This document shows positions 1,790 through 7,200 of a stretch of 7,450 bases of DNA, piece by piece. The DNA comes from a virus. The notes below the pieces were generated by a model. It had not been told where the DNA came from and ran no database searches. It saw nothing but the letters and a program-made list of their open reading frames with translations. The stretch covers positions 1 through 7,450 of the IMG/VR virus record IMGVR_UViG_3300044997_000678; one strand, given 5' to 3'. Each line of letters starts with the position of its first letter. Positions within the stretch are counted from its first letter, which is position 1. Both the position numbers and the translations under genes were made by a program.

Positions 1790-2095
1790 TCACCCTGCAT
1801 TCGGTTTTGTTGCTTGTTTGTGTGGAATTAAATCAAGAATGATCAAAGTTGAGTTTTTACCGTTTGATACTTGCTCTAAAACAACGTCAGCATTCAAAGG
1901 AAATTCAAGGTCTTTAATCTTTTTGAAGTTCTCACTTGTACCCCATTTGATTTGTTCACCGACTTCACCAGCGAAGTTGTCGCCCTCTTGTAGATCGGCT
2001 TTATAGAAAACAGTAGTGCTATCATATGGCTTTCCTTGATAGTCACCTTTTGAGCTTTTTGCGCCTAGAACTGTCATGGTTGTCTTAAATTGCAT
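1790..2095 (-). CDS. ssDNA-binding protein (gV / RstB-like), 101 aa
   Basis: It lies immediately downstream of rep and overlaps it by 11 nt. GAGGG sits 8 nt upstream of the ATG. Size is about 100 aa. The N-terminal ...KGDYQGKPYDSTTVFY... resembles the G-K-P-Y region of vibrio-type inovirus ssDNA-binding proteins. That resemblance is by eye, not searched. Confidence 0.65.
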   Translation of the reverse strand: MQFKTTMTVLGAKSSKGDYQGKPYDSTTVFYKADLQEGDNFAGEVGEQIKWGTSENFKKIKDLEFPLNADVVLEQVSNGKNSTLIILDLIPHKQATKPNAG

Positions 2096-3596
2096 GAGTT
2101 AAACCCTCATAAAAGATTTCGTTTGATGTAAGAAAAGGAACACCCTCAAATAAAGGTGTTTCAGTGATAGTTTTGTTTTGAATCGGTTGACCAATGCGCA
2201 AAGCTTGCATAACAGCAGCATGAGAAAAGTTAAGACGCTTTGGTACAACGTCCTTATCTGATGAAATCAGATTGAGAAGATCAGAATCACTAATAAATTT
2301 TCTGAACTGGCGTATGTATTTGCCGAATTGAACTTTGACGATATCAAGAGCTTTATCTACATTGATATTTGCTTGTTTTTCAATGAGTTCACATTTTTCA
2401 GGTGCTACGAAATCATTTAACTGATTCATAAGCATCTCTAATGCAGGATAAGCACCTTTGAAATATGTACTTGGAGATAAAAGAATATCTAGAGGTAAAT
2501 AACGATCGGTGGATTTAAGCTCCAATTCAGCACGTGTCCAAAGGCTTAAGGAATCTCCCTCTTTTTTGCCACGCTCATAAAAACGAAGAAATTTAGAGCT
2601 TGAACGGTTGCCAATAGTAAGAGTTCTGCCCTTTCCATTGATACGCTTCCAGTCACCAAGTTTATTGATTTCTGAATTACGACCACCGCACCAAAATAAA
2701 TCCTGAGAATCCCATTGATCAGCTAGATCAACAGAAACCCATTCTGATTCAAAGTCATCAAAAGCGATATCAACACGATTTAATTTTGGTGAAATAGCTT
2801 GTACTTTTAAGAACTTATATAACTGCTCATTCCAACCCTTGCGAGCTAGAGCGCAACCAGTACCATTGATTTGTACAGTAATTCGCTTGTTATTGTGACC
2901 GTAAAGAATTAAGCCTAAATTATCTTGTAAATCATAACCATACTTGTTGAAATGCATACCCTTTTCACGTTTTTGGGATATACCGAAGCCAAAGATTTCA
3001 AAAAGGATTTGATCAAGATAAGTTTCAATAGATTCGCCAACAGCATCATCTACATGTTCAGGCTTTAAACCAGCGCATTTATCACCTAGAGTTGTTTGGC
3101 AAAAACTAAATGTAACCCAATCAAGACCACATGGTGAACCATCGACTGGAGCAGCCTTAAGGACTGGAACAACACCTTGAGGAGTTGAAATTAAATTGTA
3201 ATTATCAAGATTTCTTGGGAAAGCATAAGATTCAAATGTATTGAACGTATATTCATGAGAATAGCTACTATCCGCTACCCCTATATTATAAAAAGGGGTG
3301 CTTTCTGCCGTATTTAACACGGTATTGGCTACTTTTTGAGCAAATATTTCTTGAATAGAAGAATCTGATTTAGAAGAAGAAGATTTAGAGTTGACCAATT
3401 GATCTACAGCATCGAGTTTATTTTTTACAATGCCATTAAGTAGATTTTTTAGAGTTTCACCATCTGACAAGGAAACGTCACCAAAAGCAGTATGTGCAAA
3501 AATGTCATCGTGTATGGCTTTTTGTTGTTCGAATATTTCAGAAAGAGATAGATTTGAGTTATCAAGATTTTGGATTTGAGCTAATAGATTTTTCAT
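2085..3596 (-). CDS. Rolling-circle replication initiator, Rep_trans (pfam02486, RstA/gII-like) with ~155-aa N-terminal extension, 503 aa
   Basis: Rep_trans-like motifs are present: GLDWVTFSF, ITVQINGTGCALA, NRVDIAFDD and GRTLTIGNRSSSKFLRFYERGKKEG. It is the largest ORF and precedes the ssDNA-binding gene. Confidence 0.88.
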   Translation of the reverse strand: MKNLLAQIQNLDNSNLSLSEIFEQQKAIHDDIFAHTAFGDVSLSDGETLKNLLNGIVKNKLDAVDQLVNSKSSSSKSDSSIQEIFAQKVANTVLNTAESTPFYNIGVADSSYSHEYTFNTFESYAFPRNLDNYNLISTPQGVVPVLKAAPVDGSPCGLDWVTFSFCQTTLGDKCAGLKPEHVDDAVGESIETYLDQILFEIFGFGISQKREKGMHFNKYGYDLQDNLGLILYGHNNKRITVQINGTGCALARKGWNEQLYKFLKVQAISPKLNRVDIAFDDFESEWVSVDLADQWDSQDLFWCGGRNSEINKLGDWKRINGKGRTLTIGNRSSSKFLRFYERGKKEGDSLSLWTRAELELKSTDRYLPLDILLSPSTYFKGAYPALEMLMNQLNDFVAPEKCELIEKQANINVDKALDIVKVQFGKYIRQFRKFISDSDLLNLISSDKDVVPKRLNFSHAAVMQALRIGQPIQNKTITETPLFEGVPFLTSNEIFYEGLTHAI

Positions 3597-3981: not shown

Positions 3982-4087
3982 TATCACAAATGATATTTGA
4001 GTGTTTTATAACATGTAATTTGTGATATCGCAACATATCATAAAATATAAATCAGATATGATGTGTCACTTTTCAGGAGAAACCGAA
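3982..4087. promoter_or_regulatory. Divergent promoter/operator region between the rep operon (-) and the RHH regulator (+)
   Basis: The minus-strand promoter has -35 TTGCGA (4033..4028), a 17-nt spacer and -10 TATAAA (4010..4005). A 10-bp inverted repeat, tatcacaaat (3982..3991) / atttgtgata (4018..4027), brackets the -10. Further gatatg/catatc repeats occur at 4035..4070. A plus-strand promoter (TTGTGA 4020..4025 with TAAAAT 4041..4046, 15-nt spacer) is weaker. Confidence 0.45.
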
Positions 4088-4282
4088 ATGGCAGTTACAG
4101 TTAGACTTAGAGACGATGAAGAAGAAATGGTGAAAGAAGCAACTTTAGAAATGATGTTTGAGACGAAAATTAGAATTAAAGAGTCTGATGTTATTCATAC
4201 ACTTATAAGAAAATATATAAGAGATATTAAAACAGAAGATGTTATGAAATACAGAGCTGAAATTCTTAAAAAAGACGATTAA
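4088..4282 (+). CDS. Ribbon-helix-helix (CopG/Arc-like) DNA-binding protein, 64 aa; candidate phage repressor/regulator
   Basis: AGGAGA (4075..4080) lies 7 nt before ATG 4088. MAVTVRLRDDEEEMVKEATLE... shows an N-terminal beta-strand (VTVRL) followed by two helices, as RHH proteins do. It is divergent from the rep operon, the position rstR holds in CTXphi. Confidence 0.68.
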   Translation: MAVTVRLRDDEEEMVKEATLEMMFETKIRIKESDVIHTLIRKYIRDIKTEDVMKYRAEILKKDD

Positions 4283-4316: not shown

Positions 4317-4736
4317 ATGAGTCATATCATTTTTTTGATCTTTGGAATAGCCATTGGCTATTTCATTGGAATAAACAAGAAAAAAGAAGAACATAAAGTA
4401 AAAAGAAAAAGAGTAATAAGTTATTCAGAAAGGCAGTTAGCTAAAGTAAGTTACGAAACAGACTCAGACAGAATAAGACAATTAAATTTGCTGTCACCGA
4501 ACGAAAGTAAATTTATGAGACTACTTCAACACGAATTCGAAAAACAAAAAGTAATAGTAAAAGACAGAAGATTTTATATTGCAGATCAGGACAACTACCC
4601 TATTGCAATTTTTGAGTACAGAGATGGAACAAAGCAAATAAAATCAAAAGATATTGAAGATGGTTTGCCTATTTTTATATATAAATCAATAATATCAAAA
4701 GAAGAAATAAGAAAAGACAAAGAAGAACTAGCATGA
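4317..4736 (+). CDS. Membrane-anchored 139-aa protein; C-terminal domain weakly resembles DUF2726 / PD-(D/E)xK-like folds
   Basis: AGGAAA lies upstream of the ATG. The N-terminal TM segment is HIIFLIFGIAIGYFIGI, followed by a Lys-rich linker. The motif LLSPNESKFMRLLQHEF...RRFYIADQDNYPIAIFEYRDG resembles L-[ST]-x-x-E-x-x-F...D...E-x-[KR]. That resemblance is by eye only. The stop codon overlaps dif-like site A. Confidence 0.55.
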   Translation: MSHIIFLIFGIAIGYFIGINKKKEEHKVKRKRVISYSERQLAKVSYETDSDRIRQLNLLSPNESKFMRLLQHEFEKQKVIVKDRRFYIADQDNYPIAIFEYRDGTKQIKSKDIEDGLPIFIYKSIISKEEIRKDKEELA

Positions 4737-4837
4737 TTTCGCATAATGCAGATTGATGTTAAATAACGCTGTTTTGCAATGGTAGATATTATTGCAAAAC
4801 AGCTATGTAACATAATCGCGCACACATTATGCGAAAT
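4736..4837. other. attP candidate: two inverted dif-like XerC/XerD sites flanking a 13-bp perfect palindrome, foldable into a forked hairpin (CTXphi type)
   Basis: Site A (4736..4764) is atttcgcataa-tgcagat-tgatgttaaat. Site B (4805..4837, reverse complement) is atttcgcataa-tgtgtgcgcga-ttatgttacat. E. coli dif is GGTGCGCATAA-TGTATA-TTATGTTAAAT. The XerC-type arms are identical to each other, and each XerD-type arm matches 10/11. The central regions are 7 and 11 nt. The inner stem is gctgttttgcaat (4768..4780) / attgcaaaacagc (4791..4803). Confidence 0.75.
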
Positions 4838-4856: not shown

Positions 4857-5220
4857 TGGATAAATTCACCTGGTATGAGACCTGGTGCCAGGATAAAAGA
4901 CCTGGATAAATTCACCTGGTGTGAGACCTGGTGCCAGGATAAAAGACCTGGATAAATTCACCTGGTGTGAGACATGGTGCCAGGATAAAAGACCTGGATA
5001 AATTCACCTGGTGTGAGACCTGGTGCCAGGATAAAAGACCTGGATAAATTCACCTGGTGTGAGACCTGGTGCCAGGATAAAAGACCTGGATAAATTCACC
5101 TGGTGTGAGACATGGTGCCAAGATAAAAGACCTGGATAAATTCACCTGGTGTGAGACCTGGTGCCAGGATAAAAGACCTGGATAAATTCACCTGGTGTGA
5201 GACATGGTGCCAGGATAAAA
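4857..5220. repeat. Tandem array of 8 x 46-bp direct repeats (7 full units plus a 42-bp unit), non-coding
   Basis: The unit is tggataaattcacctggtgtgagacctggtgccaggataaaagacc. Units start at 4857, 4903, 4949, 4995, 5041, 5087, 5133 and 5179. There are only 5 substitutions: 4875, 4974, 5112, 5121 and 5204. Each unit holds the palindrome CACCTGGTG, the inverted repeat CCTGG-TG-CCAGG, and two CCWGGATAAA sub-repeats. Confidence 0.97.
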
Positions 5221-5366: not shown

Positions 5367-5720
5367 TCAGAGAGTGTTAAACGAGAGTTTTGATAAATAA
5401 AAAGCTTGAAGAAGTATGAATAAAATAAGGATAAAAATAGCAATAATATAAGAATAATTAACTTTGTTTTTATGTTTAATACGAGAAATAAATATTTGTT
5501 TTTGTTTAATTATTTCTTCATTAGTCACGTATTTATTTTTAAATCTGTATAGATAGCCTGAATCAGTTTTAATTCTCGAGGGTCTAGAGATTTCAGAAAA
5601 TAGAATTGATTTGATTGTTGATAATATTCCAGAGCAGATCGCACCAACAACAACGCCAGTTGTAAAAATAATAAAGATCATTTCTTGCAATGCAGTTAAA
5701 TCAGATACAGAAAGACTCAT
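5367..5720 (-). CDS. 117-aa two-TM membrane protein translationally coupled to zot; function unknown
   Basis: ATG 5720..5718 overlaps the zot TGA 5719..5717 as ATGA. GAGG lies 7 nt upstream. Hydrophobic segments are IFIIFTTGVVVGAICSGILSTI (N-terminal) and YIIAIFILILFILLQAFYL (C-terminal), with a basic loop between them. Confidence 0.6.
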   Translation of the reverse strand: MSLSVSDLTALQEMIFIIFTTGVVVGAICSGILSTIKSILFSEISRPSRIKTDSGYLYRFKNKYVTNEEIIKQKQIFISRIKHKNKVNYSYIIAIFILILFILLQAFYLSKLSFNTL

Positions 5721-6853
5721 AGTGAAACCTCAGAAGATTGTGATTGTTGGTTATTTTGTGGAATTGTACTTGGAGCAGGATTTTGGCGTTGTAATGTTTG
5801 AGCAGAGTAATCAAAAGGTCTATAGCCATTCATGTATTTTTTACAATCAGATTGAGAGATTGATGACATGTAATTGCCCTGCTGGTCTATACCAACGAGT
5901 TGACCGTTAGAAAGAGTCATGCAGCCTGAAAGGCGAGGATAATCATTTACTTGAATAGTGAAATTTTCAGGTAATTGGGTTTCGTATGGTTTATTTGGAT
6001 TATAGGTTATTGATGTTTTTTCTACAGATGAACCGCTACTGGAGAGATTGTTGAACCACTCAACACATTCAGGCTTTTCAACATTAACGCCCTTGCGACA
6101 CTCTATGTCTAAGTTTGTTAGTTTGTCAGTAGTAACACTAGCAGCTTGTGAACCTACAACTTGATTAGGTTGCTTGTTACCGCTTGCAATATCGGCATTT
6201 TCTTTGATTTTAGATGCAGATAAAAAAGGGTTATCAGAGCCAAAAACCATATATGAGATAAGTAAAATAACAGCGAGTAGAAAACCACCTAACTTGAAGT
6301 AGATCGGAGGTATTTTAAGTTTATGTGTATCAATTGTTGTGGATTTATATTGATCAAAGATTTTTGAATCAGGTTTAAATTTTTCGTGTGATTCAGCTTT
6401 GTTTTTGCCACCCGTTGAGTCAGGTTGCATGACAGCATAACGCCATAAAAAAACATCAGCATAGCCACGCCCATAAGCACGGTGTAAATGGTAATGCATA
6501 CCAACAAGGCTTAAGACATGATTGTGAATGAAGTTTGGAGATTGAGTAACGAGGATAATATCGTGACCAGTATGACGATGTACTTCTAATTCTTTTACTC
6601 GTGCATCTGATGATAATTTTTCACGTCCTTTATATTGAAAAAAATCGAACTGCTGAGCTTCATCATAAATGATGACAGAGCCGTCAGGGGTTTGTCTCCA
6701 GTCGTTGTTATCAGGTAGCTTTTGAACGCCATCATAATCAAATTCGTCAATATTTGTGTAAACAGGTCTACCCTCTTTTAAATATTGAATTGCGAGAGAA
6801 GCTGTTTTAGCTGTTTTGAACGAACCAGGCTTACCTGTGATAAGAGTTAACAT
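5717..6853 (-). CDS. zot: Zot-like / pI morphogenesis ATPase, 378 aa
   Basis: The N-terminal P-loop is MLTLITGKPGSFKT; V. cholerae Zot has GAPGSYKT. The Walker B-like motif is VIIYDEAQ. A central TM segment is GGFLLAVILLISYMVFG, followed by a C-terminal periplasmic domain. AGGAG lies 8 nt before the ATG. The gene follows the pVI-like gene. Confidence 0.92.
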   Translation of the reverse strand: MLTLITGKPGSFKTAKTASLAIQYLKEGRPVYTNIDEFDYDGVQKLPDNNDWRQTPDGSVIIYDEAQQFDFFQYKGREKLSSDARVKELEVHRHTGHDIILVTQSPNFIHNHVLSLVGMHYHLHRAYGRGYADVFLWRYAVMQPDSTGGKNKAESHEKFKPDSKIFDQYKSTTIDTHKLKIPPIYFKLGGFLLAVILLISYMVFGSDNPFLSASKIKENADIASGNKQPNQVVGSQAASVTTDKLTNLDIECRKGVNVEKPECVEWFNNLSSSGSSVEKTSITYNPNKPYETQLPENFTIQVNDYPRLSGCMTLSNGQLVGIDQQGNYMSSISQSDCKKYMNGYRPFDYSAQTLQRQNPAPSTIPQNNQQSQSSEVSL

Positions 6854-6867
6854 GTTTTTTTCTCCTA

Positions 6868-6934
6868 CGTGACACGCCCCACGCTACGCACACCGACAGG
6901 CGCGCGGTGCGTGTAAGCGCGTCACGCTTTTTTT
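6868..6934 (+). terminator. GC-rich (~70%) imperfect ~60-nt hairpin followed by T7; intrinsic-terminator-like on the plus strand, antisense to the structural operon
   Basis: The outer stem is cgtgac (6869..6874) / gtcacg (6921..6926). Inner pairings are acgcac/gtgcgt or caccg/cggtg. ttttttt follows at 6928..6934. By hand count 42/60 bases are G+C, in an AT-rich genome. It overlaps the pVI-like stop codon and abuts the zot SD. Confidence 0.5.
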
Positions 6935-7200
6935 ATAGAGACATTGGCAGCAAGTATTGTTGCTCTAGCTACAAGAGCGCCTATGATGATTGAAATTGCA
7001 TGGTCTAAGCCTGAAATGCTTAGCAAGCCTAAATAAGTTGGGTCTATTGAGCTTGAAGCTGATATAGCTTTATTTATGTATGTTGAAAGTATTGCGTTTA
7101 TTACTGCACCCGATACAAGAGTTACACCAGCACCAAGCAGAACTTTTTTTGCAAAGTTAGATAAAAGCCAACTTGTAAGAGCAAATAGCATTTGTTTCAT
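6922..7200 (-). CDS. pVI / Ace-like hydrophobic minor coat protein, 92 aa
   Basis: It is strongly hydrophobic, with multiple TM-like segments. ATG 7200..7198 overlaps the pIII-like TGA 7199..7197 as ATGA. Its position between the pIII-like gene and zot matches Ff gVI and CTXphi ace. Confidence 0.65.
   Translation of the reverse strand: MKQMLFALTSWLLSNFAKKVLLGAGVTLVSGAVINAILSTYINKAISASSSIDPTYLGLLSISGLDHAISIIIGALVARATILAANVSIKKA

What the first reader, a model, noticed from the sequence alone, without database searches (positions are those of the whole stretch)
4736..4837. CTXphi-type attP: paired inverted dif-like sites folding into a forked hairpin, in a genome with no integrase
Two sites share the identical XerC-type arm ATTTCGCATAA, and each has a XerD-type arm matching TTATGTTAAAT at 10/11. 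They are inverted around a 13-bp perfect palindrome with a 10-nt loop. Folded as ssDNA, the XerC arms pair perfectly (13 bp including TG/CA) and the XerD arms pair at 9/11. The central regions (7 nt versus 11 nt) form an unpaired bubble. This is the architecture established for CTXphi attP(+), where host XerCD integrates the single-stranded genome at dif. It implies a temperate, integrase-free IMEX lifestyle that is irreversible by excision. The arm sequences predict the host dif. The ATTTCGCATAA arm and the AT-rich genome point to a low-GC gammaproteobacterium, but that is inference only. Site A overlaps the stop codon of the 139-aa gene, so integration places that gene at the prophage edge.
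Basis: partly seen in the sequence, partly recalled or inferred. Interest (0 to 1): 0.75.

Follow-up and report, generated by a model that had tools for sequence, protein, structure and literature searches.

The report
CTX-type hairpin attachment site, Acinetobacter phage
This 102-base segment of a small filamentous phage of Acinetobacter is very probably the site the phage uses to insert its single-stranded genome into the host chromosome with the host's own XerC/XerD enzymes, as the cholera-toxin phage does; it is a new example of a known trick, not a new trick.

Summary
The window is a circular 7,323-nt inovirus of Acinetobacter that has no integrase. Positions 4736-4837 hold two inverted dif-like sites, with central regions of 7 and 11 nt, which fold into a forked hairpin. 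More than 45 related contigs have the same design, and the inner stem shows compensatory changes.

Prophage arrays of relatives were found in Acinetobacter chromosomes and IMG/VR contigs. Their recombination breakpoints lie within ATAA|TGT(A), at the XerC-arm/central-region boundary of site B, read on the strand that encodes the phage genes (the packaged strand). A hybrid site is left on one side and a regenerated dif (C arm-TGTATA-TTATGTTAAAT) on the other. This is the CTXphi pattern.

In the window the predicted crossover is between 4827 and 4826 on the minus strand. Use of ssDNA, XerC-only catalysis and irreversibility remain inferences, and no integrated copy of this exact phage was found. 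Verdict: a new member of a known kind.

Side findings are more unusual. A sister attP class has breakpoints in the XerD arm and loads on the other side of dif. There are RS1-like mini-elements, and many relatives carry an internal dif-like site.

The parts
4736..4837 (-). Complete attP(+) region. On the packaged strand (window minus) the order is site B, stem-loop, complement of site A.
   Evidence: Sequence. ssDNA folds. Same architecture in 39 distinct hairpins of relatives.
4827..4837 (-). XerC-binding arm of site B (ATTTCGCATAA). The predicted XerC cleavage and crossover point is between 4827 and 4826 on the minus strand.
   Evidence: Breakpoint mapping in relatives brackets the crossover to ATAA|TGT(A). 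Hairpins that are otherwise identical differ only in this arm.
4816..4826 (-). Central region of site B (TGTGTGCGCGA, 11 nt). Its first 3 nt, TGT, match the Acinetobacter dif spacer TGTATA.
   Evidence: dif sequences come.
4805..4815 (-). XerD-type arm of site B (TTATGTTACAT).
   Evidence: arm conserved; position 9 is C in 17 of 18 aligned relatives, T in L063.
4736..4746 (+). XerC-type arm of site A. Its complement forms the bottom strand of the XerC-arm duplex in the hairpin.
   Evidence: helix 1 is 96.6% paired.
4747..4753 (+). Central region of site A (TGCAGAT, 7 nt). Its TG pairs with the first two bases of the site B centre, and the rest forms the bubble.
   Evidence: TGMAGAT is conserved in all class I loci.
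4754..4764 (+). XerD-type arm of site A (TGATGTTAAAT). It has a conserved G at position 2, which gives one of two conserved mismatches in the XerD-arm duplex.
4768..4803 (.). Inner 13-bp stem and 10-nt loop that bring the two sites together.
   Evidence: 7 of 13 pairs show compensatory changes in 18 relatives, with 0/500 shuffles reaching this.
2085..3596 (-). Rep_trans (PF02486, which I recall is also the family of CTXphi RstA) rolling-circle initiator. It defines the coding (packaged) strand and would regenerate ssDNA from tandem prophages.
   Evidence: Homologues are in Acinetobacter prophages.
4022..4282 (+). 86-aa ORF on the opposite strand, next to attP and in the position of rstR. It may be a repressor with a ribbon-helix-helix-like N-terminus; this is inference only.
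   Evidence: phrog_5219. Homologues lie directly beside the hairpin in L045, L064 and others.
4317..4736 (+). 139-aa ORF of unknown function with an N-terminal hydrophobic segment (phrog_23897). Its stop codon overlaps site A by 1 nt. It is an accessory gene that is absent from most relatives.

Best explanation
Positions 4736-4837 are the attachment site of a CTXphi-type integrative element that exploits Xer (IMEX). The phage packages the strand that encodes Rep, ssb, coat and Zot, which is the window minus strand. On that strand site B (4837->4805) and the complement of site A (4764->4736) fold back on each other, helped by the 13-bp inner stem. The stem then offers host XerC/XerD four features in order: a perfect 11+2-bp XerC-arm duplex, a bubble (9 nt over 5 nt), a 9/11 XerD-arm duplex, and then the inner stem-loop. 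XerC cuts the phage strand between 4827 and 4826 and cuts the top strand of the Acinetobacter dif site after ...CG(T/C)ATAA. It swaps the two strands, and the swap is stabilised by the shared TGT. Replication turns this one-strand junction into a prophage. The left end (attL) is the host C arm plus the phage 11-nt centre, the hairpin sequence and the 139-aa gene. The right end (attR) is the phage C arm plus TGTATA plus TTATGTTAAAT, a working dif that can accept the next element. In double-stranded form neither site (11-bp and 7-bp centres, non-consensus TGAT) should recombine, so excision is not expected, and new virions would come from tandem copies by Rep-driven rolling-circle replication.

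Shown here: the architecture, its conservation and covariation, the position and polarity of the breakpoints in relatives, integration at dif, tandem and mixed arrays, and the absence of an integrase.

Inferred: ssDNA as the substrate, XerC-only catalysis, resolution by replication, and irreversibility.
For: (1) The architecture is confirmed and is non-random.

(2) It matches the published CTXphi attP. That site has attP1 with a 12-bp centre and attP2 with a 5-7-bp centre, inverted and about 90 bp apart, lying between the cargo end and rstR. It uses XerC only, and specificity is set by the bases next to the XerC arm (PMC4246890).

(3) The site-A motif occurs in 45 IMG/VR contigs. 39 distinct hairpins keep the design although their loops are 36-101 nt long. 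Five unrelated 6-9-nt sequences directly inside the XerD arms are each self-complementary. The inner helix has 7/13 pairs with compensatory changes, and cells paired drop from 95% to 31-42% when the partners are slid.

(4) Breakpoints were mapped from pairs of loci. Pairs that share the left flank but not the right diverge 3-6 nt after the C-arm/centre boundary of site B. Pairs that share the right flank but not the left diverge 4 or >=11 nt before it. For example...TTTACCACAGC-ATTTCGCATAA is joined to TGTATA-TTATGTTAAAT+flank in L090, to the hairpin with centre TGTAGTCCAGA in L059, and to the hairpin with centre TGTGTGCAGGA in L052/L076.

(5) A. bohemicus ANC 3994 (L045) has host genes on both sides. 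Its attL has the host-type arm ATTTCGTATAA, its attR is ACTTCGTATAA|TGTATA-TTATGTTAAAT plus the conserved host flank, and the un-integrated junction of a closely related variant of this element (L082) has ACTTCGTATAA.

(6) The dif orientation relative to the phage genes is the one expected if the coding strand integrates.

(7) Tandem and mixed arrays occur (L085, L052, L071, L092, L123).

(8) There is no integrase.
Against: No integrated copy of this exact phage, and no copy of its specific site B or predicted attR, was found in IMG/VR or JGI metagenome contigs. The junction evidence therefore comes from relatives that share the attP design, some of which have only 40-60% Rep identity or a different Rep family. 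Junction sequences alone cannot separate ssDNA-hairpin integration from a double-stranded XerC-first (VGJ-type) reaction at site B. A palindrome bound by a dimeric protein would also covary. Both strands fold equally well. Relatives closer in Rep (87%, A. haemolyticus and A. junii) carry a different attP class with a different breakpoint, so the attP type is a swappable module and must be read from the site itself. The circular contig could be an episome or a collapsed tandem prophage.
Confidence: 0.78

Rival explanations
1. Double-stranded, VGJphi-type attP. Site B alone, in the replicative form, recombines with dif through a XerC-first exchange, and site A with the stem is there for another reason.
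For: The junction topology (attL = host C arm + phage centre; attR = phage C arm + dif centre) is identical for ds and ss substrates.
Against: Site B centres are 8-13 bp in relatives and 11 bp here, whereas known ds Xer substrates have 6-7 bp. CTXphi attP1, with a 12-bp centre, is reported to be inactive as dsDNA (PMC4246890). The inverted partner, the conserved mismatches and the covarying stems are maintained in all 39 hairpins.
Confidence: 0.1
2. The hairpin is mainly a minus-strand origin or packaging signal, and the dif-like arms serve to resolve replicative-form dimers, like plasmid Xer sites. The phage would be purely episomal.
For: Inovirus intergenic regions carry origin and packaging hairpins. 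The window is a circular contig. Acinetobacter plasmids are rich in Xer sites (PMC11705084).
Against: Relatives with this design are integrated at chromosomal dif, with breakpoints at the XerC cleavage position. Two inverted sites with 7- and 11-bp centres cannot resolve dimers. A dual role as origin or packaging signal is not excluded.
Confidence: 0.06
3. Integration uses site A on its XerD-arm side, as in the sister 'class II' attP of the same phage family. That would put the prophage in the opposite orientation to dif.
For: Class II relatives (A. junii L026, A. haemolyticus L024/L123, A. gerneri L034) have breakpoints inside the XerD arm of site A. Some of them are the closest Rep relatives of the window (87%).
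Against: The window's sites are class I in every diagnostic feature: site A centre TGCAGAT with arm TGATGTTAAAT, and a long site B centre that starts with TGT. None of the class I loci shows a site A breakpoint.
Confidence: 0.04
4. It is an inactive relic of an ancestral attP.
For: No integrated copy of this exact phage was found.
Against: Both XerC arms are perfect and identical. The centre keeps TGT. The stem is intact and is the most stable of the short-loop type bar two.
Confidence: 0.02

Closest known systems
CTXphi attP(+) of Vibrio cholerae (also RS1, and the predicted sites of YpfPhi and CUS-1Phi)
   Same: Both have two inverted dif-like sites, one with a long centre (12 bp in CTXphi, 11 here) and one with a short centre (5-7 vs 7). 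In both, the sites fold on the (+) strand into a forked hairpin and lie between the end of the structural/cargo module and a divergently transcribed regulator. The Rep belongs to Rep_trans, which from my memory is also the family of CTXphi RstA. There is no integrase. Short homology follows the XerC arm. The crossover is on the XerC side, dif is regenerated at the right end, and tandem arrays and short Rep-only satellites occur (PMC4246890).
   Different: The host is Acinetobacter and the arm sequences differ. The spacer between the sites is much shorter (40 nt vs about 90), although relatives reach 101 nt. Nothing has been tested biochemically. In relatives the same attP module is also attached to a Phage_CRI-type Rep.
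VGJphi-type double-stranded attP
   Same: It depends on Xer, the exchange is on the XerC side, and it has the same junction topology.
   Different: VGJphi has a single 29-bp site with a 7-bp centre that acts as dsDNA and is reversible. Here the exchanging site has an 11-bp centre and an obligatory inverted partner.
TLCphi / GGI type (XerD-first)
   Same: It integrates at dif using host Xer enzymes.
   Different: The first exchange is on the XerD side. That pattern fits the class II sister sites in this phage family, not the window.
Acinetobacter pdif (plasmid dif) modules
   Same: The host Xer system is the same, the XerC/XerD arm sequences are very similar, and there is evidence of module shuffling at the sites.
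   Different: pdif sites are double-stranded with 6-bp centres and sit on plasmids. They have no hairpin partner and do not integrate at chromosomal dif.
Af filamentous prophages of A. baumannii (PMC11209303)
   Same: They are Acinetobacter inoviruses. Some are flanked by replication/regulation modules, occur in tandem, and were suggested to use XerCD and dif.
   Different: That paper describes no attP, hairpin or junction. Other Af phages use an IS110-type transposase.

Membership tests
CTXphi-type IMEX attP | Two dif-like XerC-centre-XerD sites in inverted orientation, a short distance apart, in a filamentous phage genome | tested here: met
   The sites are 40 nt apart.
CTXphi-type IMEX attP | Neither site is a plausible dsDNA substrate: one has a long centre and one a 5-7-bp incompatible centre | tested here: met
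   The centres are 11 and 7 nt, and site A has TGAT in place of TTAT. The criterion comes from PMC4246890. Inactivity was not tested experimentally.
CTXphi-type IMEX attP | The packaged (+) strand folds into a forked hairpin with a XerC-arm duplex, a bubble and a XerD-arm duplex | tested here: met
   In silico only: fold of -29.2 kcal/mol, z = -7.2, and covariation in relatives. The strand was assigned from gene polarity.
CTXphi-type IMEX attP | Integration at host dif, with the crossover at the XerC cleavage point of the hairpin's top strand and a regenerated dif at the right end | tested here: met
   Met in relatives with the same attP design (L045, L090, L052, L059, L092, L123). It could not be tested for this exact phage because no integrated copy was found.
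CTXphi-type IMEX attP | Homology between attP and dif immediately 3' of the XerC cleavage site | tested here: met
   TGT is shared between the site B centre and TGTATA, and TG is paired on the bottom strand.
CTXphi-type IMEX attP | No phage-encoded integrase | tested here: met
   Ten ORFs were scanned against Pfam-A and gave only Rep_trans, Zot, coat B and DUF2523. The end-spanning pIII-like ORF was not scanned; it was named by length and position and by the weak Neisseria_TspB hit on its counterparts in relatives. The rest are small ORFs.
CTXphi-type IMEX attP | ssDNA is the substrate, only XerC catalysis is needed, and the junction is resolved by replication | not testable with these tools
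   This needs in vitro cleavage assays and in vivo assays with catalytic mutants.
CTXphi-type IMEX attP | Integration is irreversible, and virions are produced from tandem prophages or satellites | tested here: inconclusive
   Tandem arrays and RS1-like mini-elements are common in relatives. Excision itself cannot be assessed from sequence.
VGJphi-type ds attP | A single dif-like site with a 6-7-bp centre that is active as dsDNA | tested here: not met
   The site at which breakpoints map (site B) has an 11-nt centre, 8-13 nt in relatives.
TLCphi/GGI-type (XerD-first) | Crossover on the XerD-arm side | tested here: not met
   Class I breakpoints are on the XerC side. Only the class II sister sites show XerD-arm breakpoints.

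The most novel reading that the evidence does not exclude
The window's attP is one half of a two-class system in Acinetobacter inoviruses. Class I hairpins (this one) exchange the top strand at the XerC arm and stack up on the XerC side of dif. Class II hairpins, in close Rep relatives, have breakpoints exactly in the XerD arm of the other site and stack up, in inverted orientation, on the XerD side of the same dif. If class II also integrates as a folded single strand, it would be a mirror-image, XerD-catalysed ssDNA integration, which to my knowledge has not been described. In addition, the conserved 'host' flank of Acinetobacter dif, which carries an inverted degenerate dif-like site about 95 nt away, would then be a fixed footprint of such phages.
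Probability: 0.2. Interest if true: 0.75.

Novelty: new member of a known kind. Interest (0 to 1): 0.45.

Why it matters
It extends the CTXphi single-strand integration paradigm, so far established in Vibrio and predicted for Yersinia and E. coli phages, to Acinetobacter. That genus includes a major hospital pathogen, and its Xer system is already implicated in shuffling resistance genes. The finding gives a nucleotide-level, testable prediction for this phage: crossover at 4827|4826, attR ending ...ATTTCGCATAA-TGTATA-TTATGTTAAAT, and dependence on the TGT homology. It explains the tandem and mixed filamentous prophage arrays seen at Acinetobacter dif. It also shows that the attP hairpin is a portable module found with at least two Rep families. 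Finally, it provides a natural series of 39 hairpin variants for studying what XerC/XerD need in a folded substrate.

Tried and rejected
- Megablast of the whole window against INPHARED phages gave no match.
- Exact-sequence look-ups of Rep and of the 139-aa protein found nothing on record.
- Searches for this phage's own site B in IMG/VR, for its predicted attR in IMG/VR, and for site B, allowing the close TGTGTGCGTGA variant, in JGI metagenomes returned nothing or only the already known L075. No integrated copy of this exact phage is therefore available.
- The single genome-contig scan, seeded with a Rep alignment, gave only one class I integration (L045). Rep similarity turned out not to track the attP type. 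In hindsight a DNA pattern of the attP would have been the better use of that scan.
- I first expected the A. junii and A. haemolyticus tandem prophages (87% Rep identity) to show CTX-type junctions. They do not: the crossover lies in the XerD arm of site A. They had to be set apart as a second attP class.
- I considered assembly chimeras as the cause of the mosaic junctions and rejected the idea. The shared segment is only 11-15 nt, and several cases come from isolate genomes, including a 3.4-Mb chromosome-sized contig.
- The fact that site A C arms all read CGCATAA was not used as evidence, because the search pattern forced it.
- A. soli, A. chinensis and A. towneri relatives carry their own tyrosine integrase and lack dif-like sites, so they are not informative for this site.
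- Pfam, PHROGs and NCBIfam gave no function for the small ORFs.

Full report
WHAT THE WINDOW IS

The first 127 bases repeat at the end, so the window is a circular genome of 7,323 nt. Almost all genes lie on the minus strand:
- Rep_trans initiator (2085-3596)
- a 101-aa protein in the position of the ssDNA-binding protein
- coat protein B (1250-1555)
- a 436-aa pIII-like ORF that spans the window ends
- DUF2523, pVI-like (6922-7200)
- Zot, pI-like (5717-6853)

Two small ORFs of 86 and 139 aa are on the plus strand. No integrase is present. This is an inovirus. By the rule that holds for characterised inoviruses, the packaged (+) strand is the coding strand, which here is the window minus strand. 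Rep homologues at 60-98% identity are almost all from Acinetobacter species, so the host genus is Acinetobacter.

THE OBSERVATION

The XerC-type arm occurs only twice in the window, both times here. None of 1000 dinucleotide-preserving shuffles contains even one complete dif-like site. As ssDNA both strands fold into the forked hairpin at about -29 to -30 kcal/mol with z about -7. Folding therefore cannot tell which strand is used.

CONSERVATION

Paired inverted dif-like sites occur in most Rep relatives. A pattern for the complement of the window-type site A (ATTTAACATCAATCTNCATTATGCG) hits 45 IMG/VR contigs. I call this design class I. Its features are:
- a site A centre TGMAGAT with arm TGATGTTAAAT
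- a site B centre of 8-13 nt, usually starting TGT, with arm TTATGTTAYNT
- two mismatches in the XerD-arm duplex (positions 2 and 9) that stay unpaired in all 18 aligned relatives, although the base at site B position 9 is C in 17 and T in L063

There are 39 distinct hairpins. The segment between the sites is either a simple 36-41-nt stem-loop or a branched 70-101-nt structure. In the long forms, the 6-9 nt next to the XerD arms are complementary, with five unrelated sequences. In an alignment of 18 short forms, 7 of the 13 inner-stem pairs carry compensatory changes. 95% of cells are paired, against 31-42% when the partners are slid, and 0/500 shuffles reach the observed values. Selection therefore maintains the fold.

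WHERE RECOMBINATION HAPPENS

In loci oriented on the phage coding strand, the order is: Zot, small ORF, site B, loop, complement of site A, regulators (on the opposite strand), Rep.

Many contigs are arrays of different elements. I mapped the breakpoints from pairs of loci:
- Pairs with the same left flank but different right flanks stay identical for only 3-6 nt past the C-arm/centre boundary of site B.
- Pairs with the same right flank but different left flanks stay identical for 4 nt (up to the C/T polymorphism in CG[C/T]ATAA) or for 11-16 nt before it.

All crossovers thus fall within ATAA|TGT(A), which is the XerC cleavage position.

Concrete cases support this. One phage end...TTTACCACAGC-ATTTCGCATAA, is joined in L090 to TGTATA-TTATGTTAAAT plus flank, in L059 to one hairpin, and in L052/L076 to another. 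Hairpins that are otherwise identical differ only in the site B C arm (L051/L055, L052/L059, L088/L092).

In A. bohemicus ANC 3994 (L045) the element lies between host genes: FAD monooxygenase, MaoC and MarR on one side and a LysR regulator on the other.
- Its attL has the host-type arm ATTTCGTATAA.
- Its attR is ACTTCGTATAA|TGTATA-TTATGTTAAAT, followed by a flank conserved in several Acinetobacter species.
- The un-integrated junction of a closely related variant of this element (L082) has ACTTCGTATAA.

Published Acinetobacter dif sites have the same TGTATA spacer, the same XerD arm and the same right flank 'agaatatc' (PMC2731167; PMC10132070). The orientation of dif relative to the phage genes is the one expected if the coding strand carries the cleaved top strand. 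The shared segments are too short (11-15 nt) for assembly chimeras, and several cases are from isolate genomes.

COMPARISON WITH WHAT IS KNOWN

The review of Vibrio phage integration (PMC4246890) describes the CTXphi site as follows. It has attP1 with a 12-bp centre and attP2 with a 5-7-bp centre, inverted and 90 bp apart, located between ctxB and rstR. The sites fold on the (+) ssDNA. XerC alone catalyses the exchange, and specificity comes from the bases next to the XerC arm. Replication resolves the junction. The prophage cannot excise, and virions come from tandem copies or RS1. A new dif forms to the right of each integrated element (PMC9226527).

The window matches every sequence-level feature, and its relatives match the junction-level features. 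What cannot be shown here is that ssDNA is the substrate, that only XerC catalysis is needed, and that integration is irreversible. A double-stranded XerC-first reaction at site B would give the same junctions. It is unlikely given the 11-bp centre and the conserved, covarying partner site.

The only paper found on Acinetobacter filamentous phages (PMC11209303) merely suggests XerCD/dif use for some tandem prophages and describes no attP. This is therefore a new member of a known kind.

PREDICTION FOR THIS PHAGE

- The crossover is between 4827 and 4826 on the minus strand.
- attL is the host C arm plus TGTGTGCGCGA-TTATGTTACAT, the stem-loop, the complement of site A, and then the 139-aa gene about 100 nt from the edge.
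- attR is ...TATACTTAA-ATTTCGCATAA-TGTATA-TTATGTTAAAT.
- No copy of these strings was found in IMG/VR. The metagenome scan covered only site B, not the attR string, and also found nothing new.

THINGS OUTSIDE THE FINDING

(a) A second attP class (class II) occurs in the closest Rep relatives, the A. junii, A. haemolyticus and A. gerneri prophages. Site A has a perfect XerD arm and a centre that starts with C. Breakpoints lie 0-2 nt after, and exactly 11 nt before, the XerD-arm/centre boundary. The prophage is inverted relative to dif. In L051, L065, L069, L092 and L123, class I elements sit on the XerC side and class II elements on the XerD side of one dif core.

(b) Many class I relatives, but not the window, carry an internal site, C arm-TGTATA-ATATGTTAAAA, between the ssb-position gene (counterpart of the window's 101-aa ORF) and the structural genes. 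Elements of 2.1-2.5 kb (hairpin, regulator, Rep, ssb) end exactly there, joined to the host XerD arm. They look like RS1-type satellites or deletion products.

(c) The conserved flank on the XerD side of Acinetobacter dif contains an inverted degenerate dif-like site and resembles class II phage loops.

(d) Other Rep relatives carry their own integrase.

(e) A 46-bp x 7.9 non-coding array lies 19 nt from site B and is unique to this phage.

Noticed in passing
L026 2285-2313, 8752-8903, 15342-15492; L024 8920-9070, 15440-15489; L034 9069-9098, 15705-15733, 18158-18185; L123 15576-15604: There is a second attP class in the closest Rep relatives. Prophage breakpoints fall inside the 11-bp XerD arm of site A (0-2 nt after and 11 nt before the arm/centre boundary), and the phage genes are inverted relative to dif. 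This implies an exchange on the XerD side, either on dsDNA or on the bottom strand of the hairpin.
   Followed up: partly
L051 3754-7500; L069 2053-6400; L092 5650-9026; L123 15380-18150: A single chromosomal dif core is flanked by class I elements on its XerC side and by class II elements, in inverted orientation, on its XerD side. The two attP classes therefore load on opposite sides of dif.
   Followed up: partly
e.g. L067 909-936, L071 5343-5370 and 11743-11770, L092 1130-1157 (absent from the window): Many class I relatives carry an internal dif-like site with a 6-bp TGTATA centre and a degenerate XerD arm (ATATGTTAAAA) between the ssb-position gene (counterpart of the window's 101-aa ORF) and the structural genes. 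The downstream sequence is conserved and the upstream sequence varies, so this is a hotspot for module exchange or deletion.
   Followed up: partly
L045 9180-11494; L092 5650-8203; L054, L072, L079, L089 (whole contigs): Mini-elements of 2.1-2.5 kb (hairpin attP, regulator, 89-aa ORF, Rep, ssb-position gene) end at dif. Some assemble as circles, which could be free circles or collapsed tandem arrays. They resemble RS1 of V. cholerae, or products of Xer deletion between the internal site and dif.
   Followed up: partly
L045 11495-11600; L034 18040-18157; L024 8918-9041: The conserved 'host' flank on the XerD side of Acinetobacter dif contains two small hairpins and, about 95 nt away, an inverted degenerate dif-like site (ATTTCKGCATAA-CTTAKA-TTATGTTCMTT). 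It resembles the loop and site B of class II phages. It may be a fixed phage footprint or the source of those attP sites.
   Followed up: no
window 4857-5220: A non-coding tandem array of 7.9 copies of a 46-bp unit (97% identical) begins 19 nt from the XerC arm of site B. Each unit has short palindromes (CCTGGTGCCAGG, CACCTGGTG), and as ssDNA it folds with z = -5.8. None of the roughly 120 related loci has it. Its function is unknown; an accessory-sequence or protein-binding role is pure speculation.
   Followed up: partly
window 4317-4736 (+): The 139-aa ORF beside attP has an N-terminal hydrophobic segment and matches only phrog_23897 (unknown function). It is absent from most relatives, and a 68%-identical fragment lies beside the hairpin in L067. 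It behaves like an accessory gene at the prophage edge.
   Followed up: partly
L123 15640-18100: A class I-type hairpin attP is attached to an element whose Rep is of the Phage_CRI family, not Rep_trans. The attP hairpin is therefore a module shared between unrelated replication systems.
   Followed up: no
L028 16355-17179; L120 16232-17065; L124 13024-13848: A. chinensis, A. soli and A. towneri relatives (70-76% Rep identity) carry their own tyrosine integrase after Zot and have no dif-like sites. This is a third integration mode within one Rep family.
   Followed up: no
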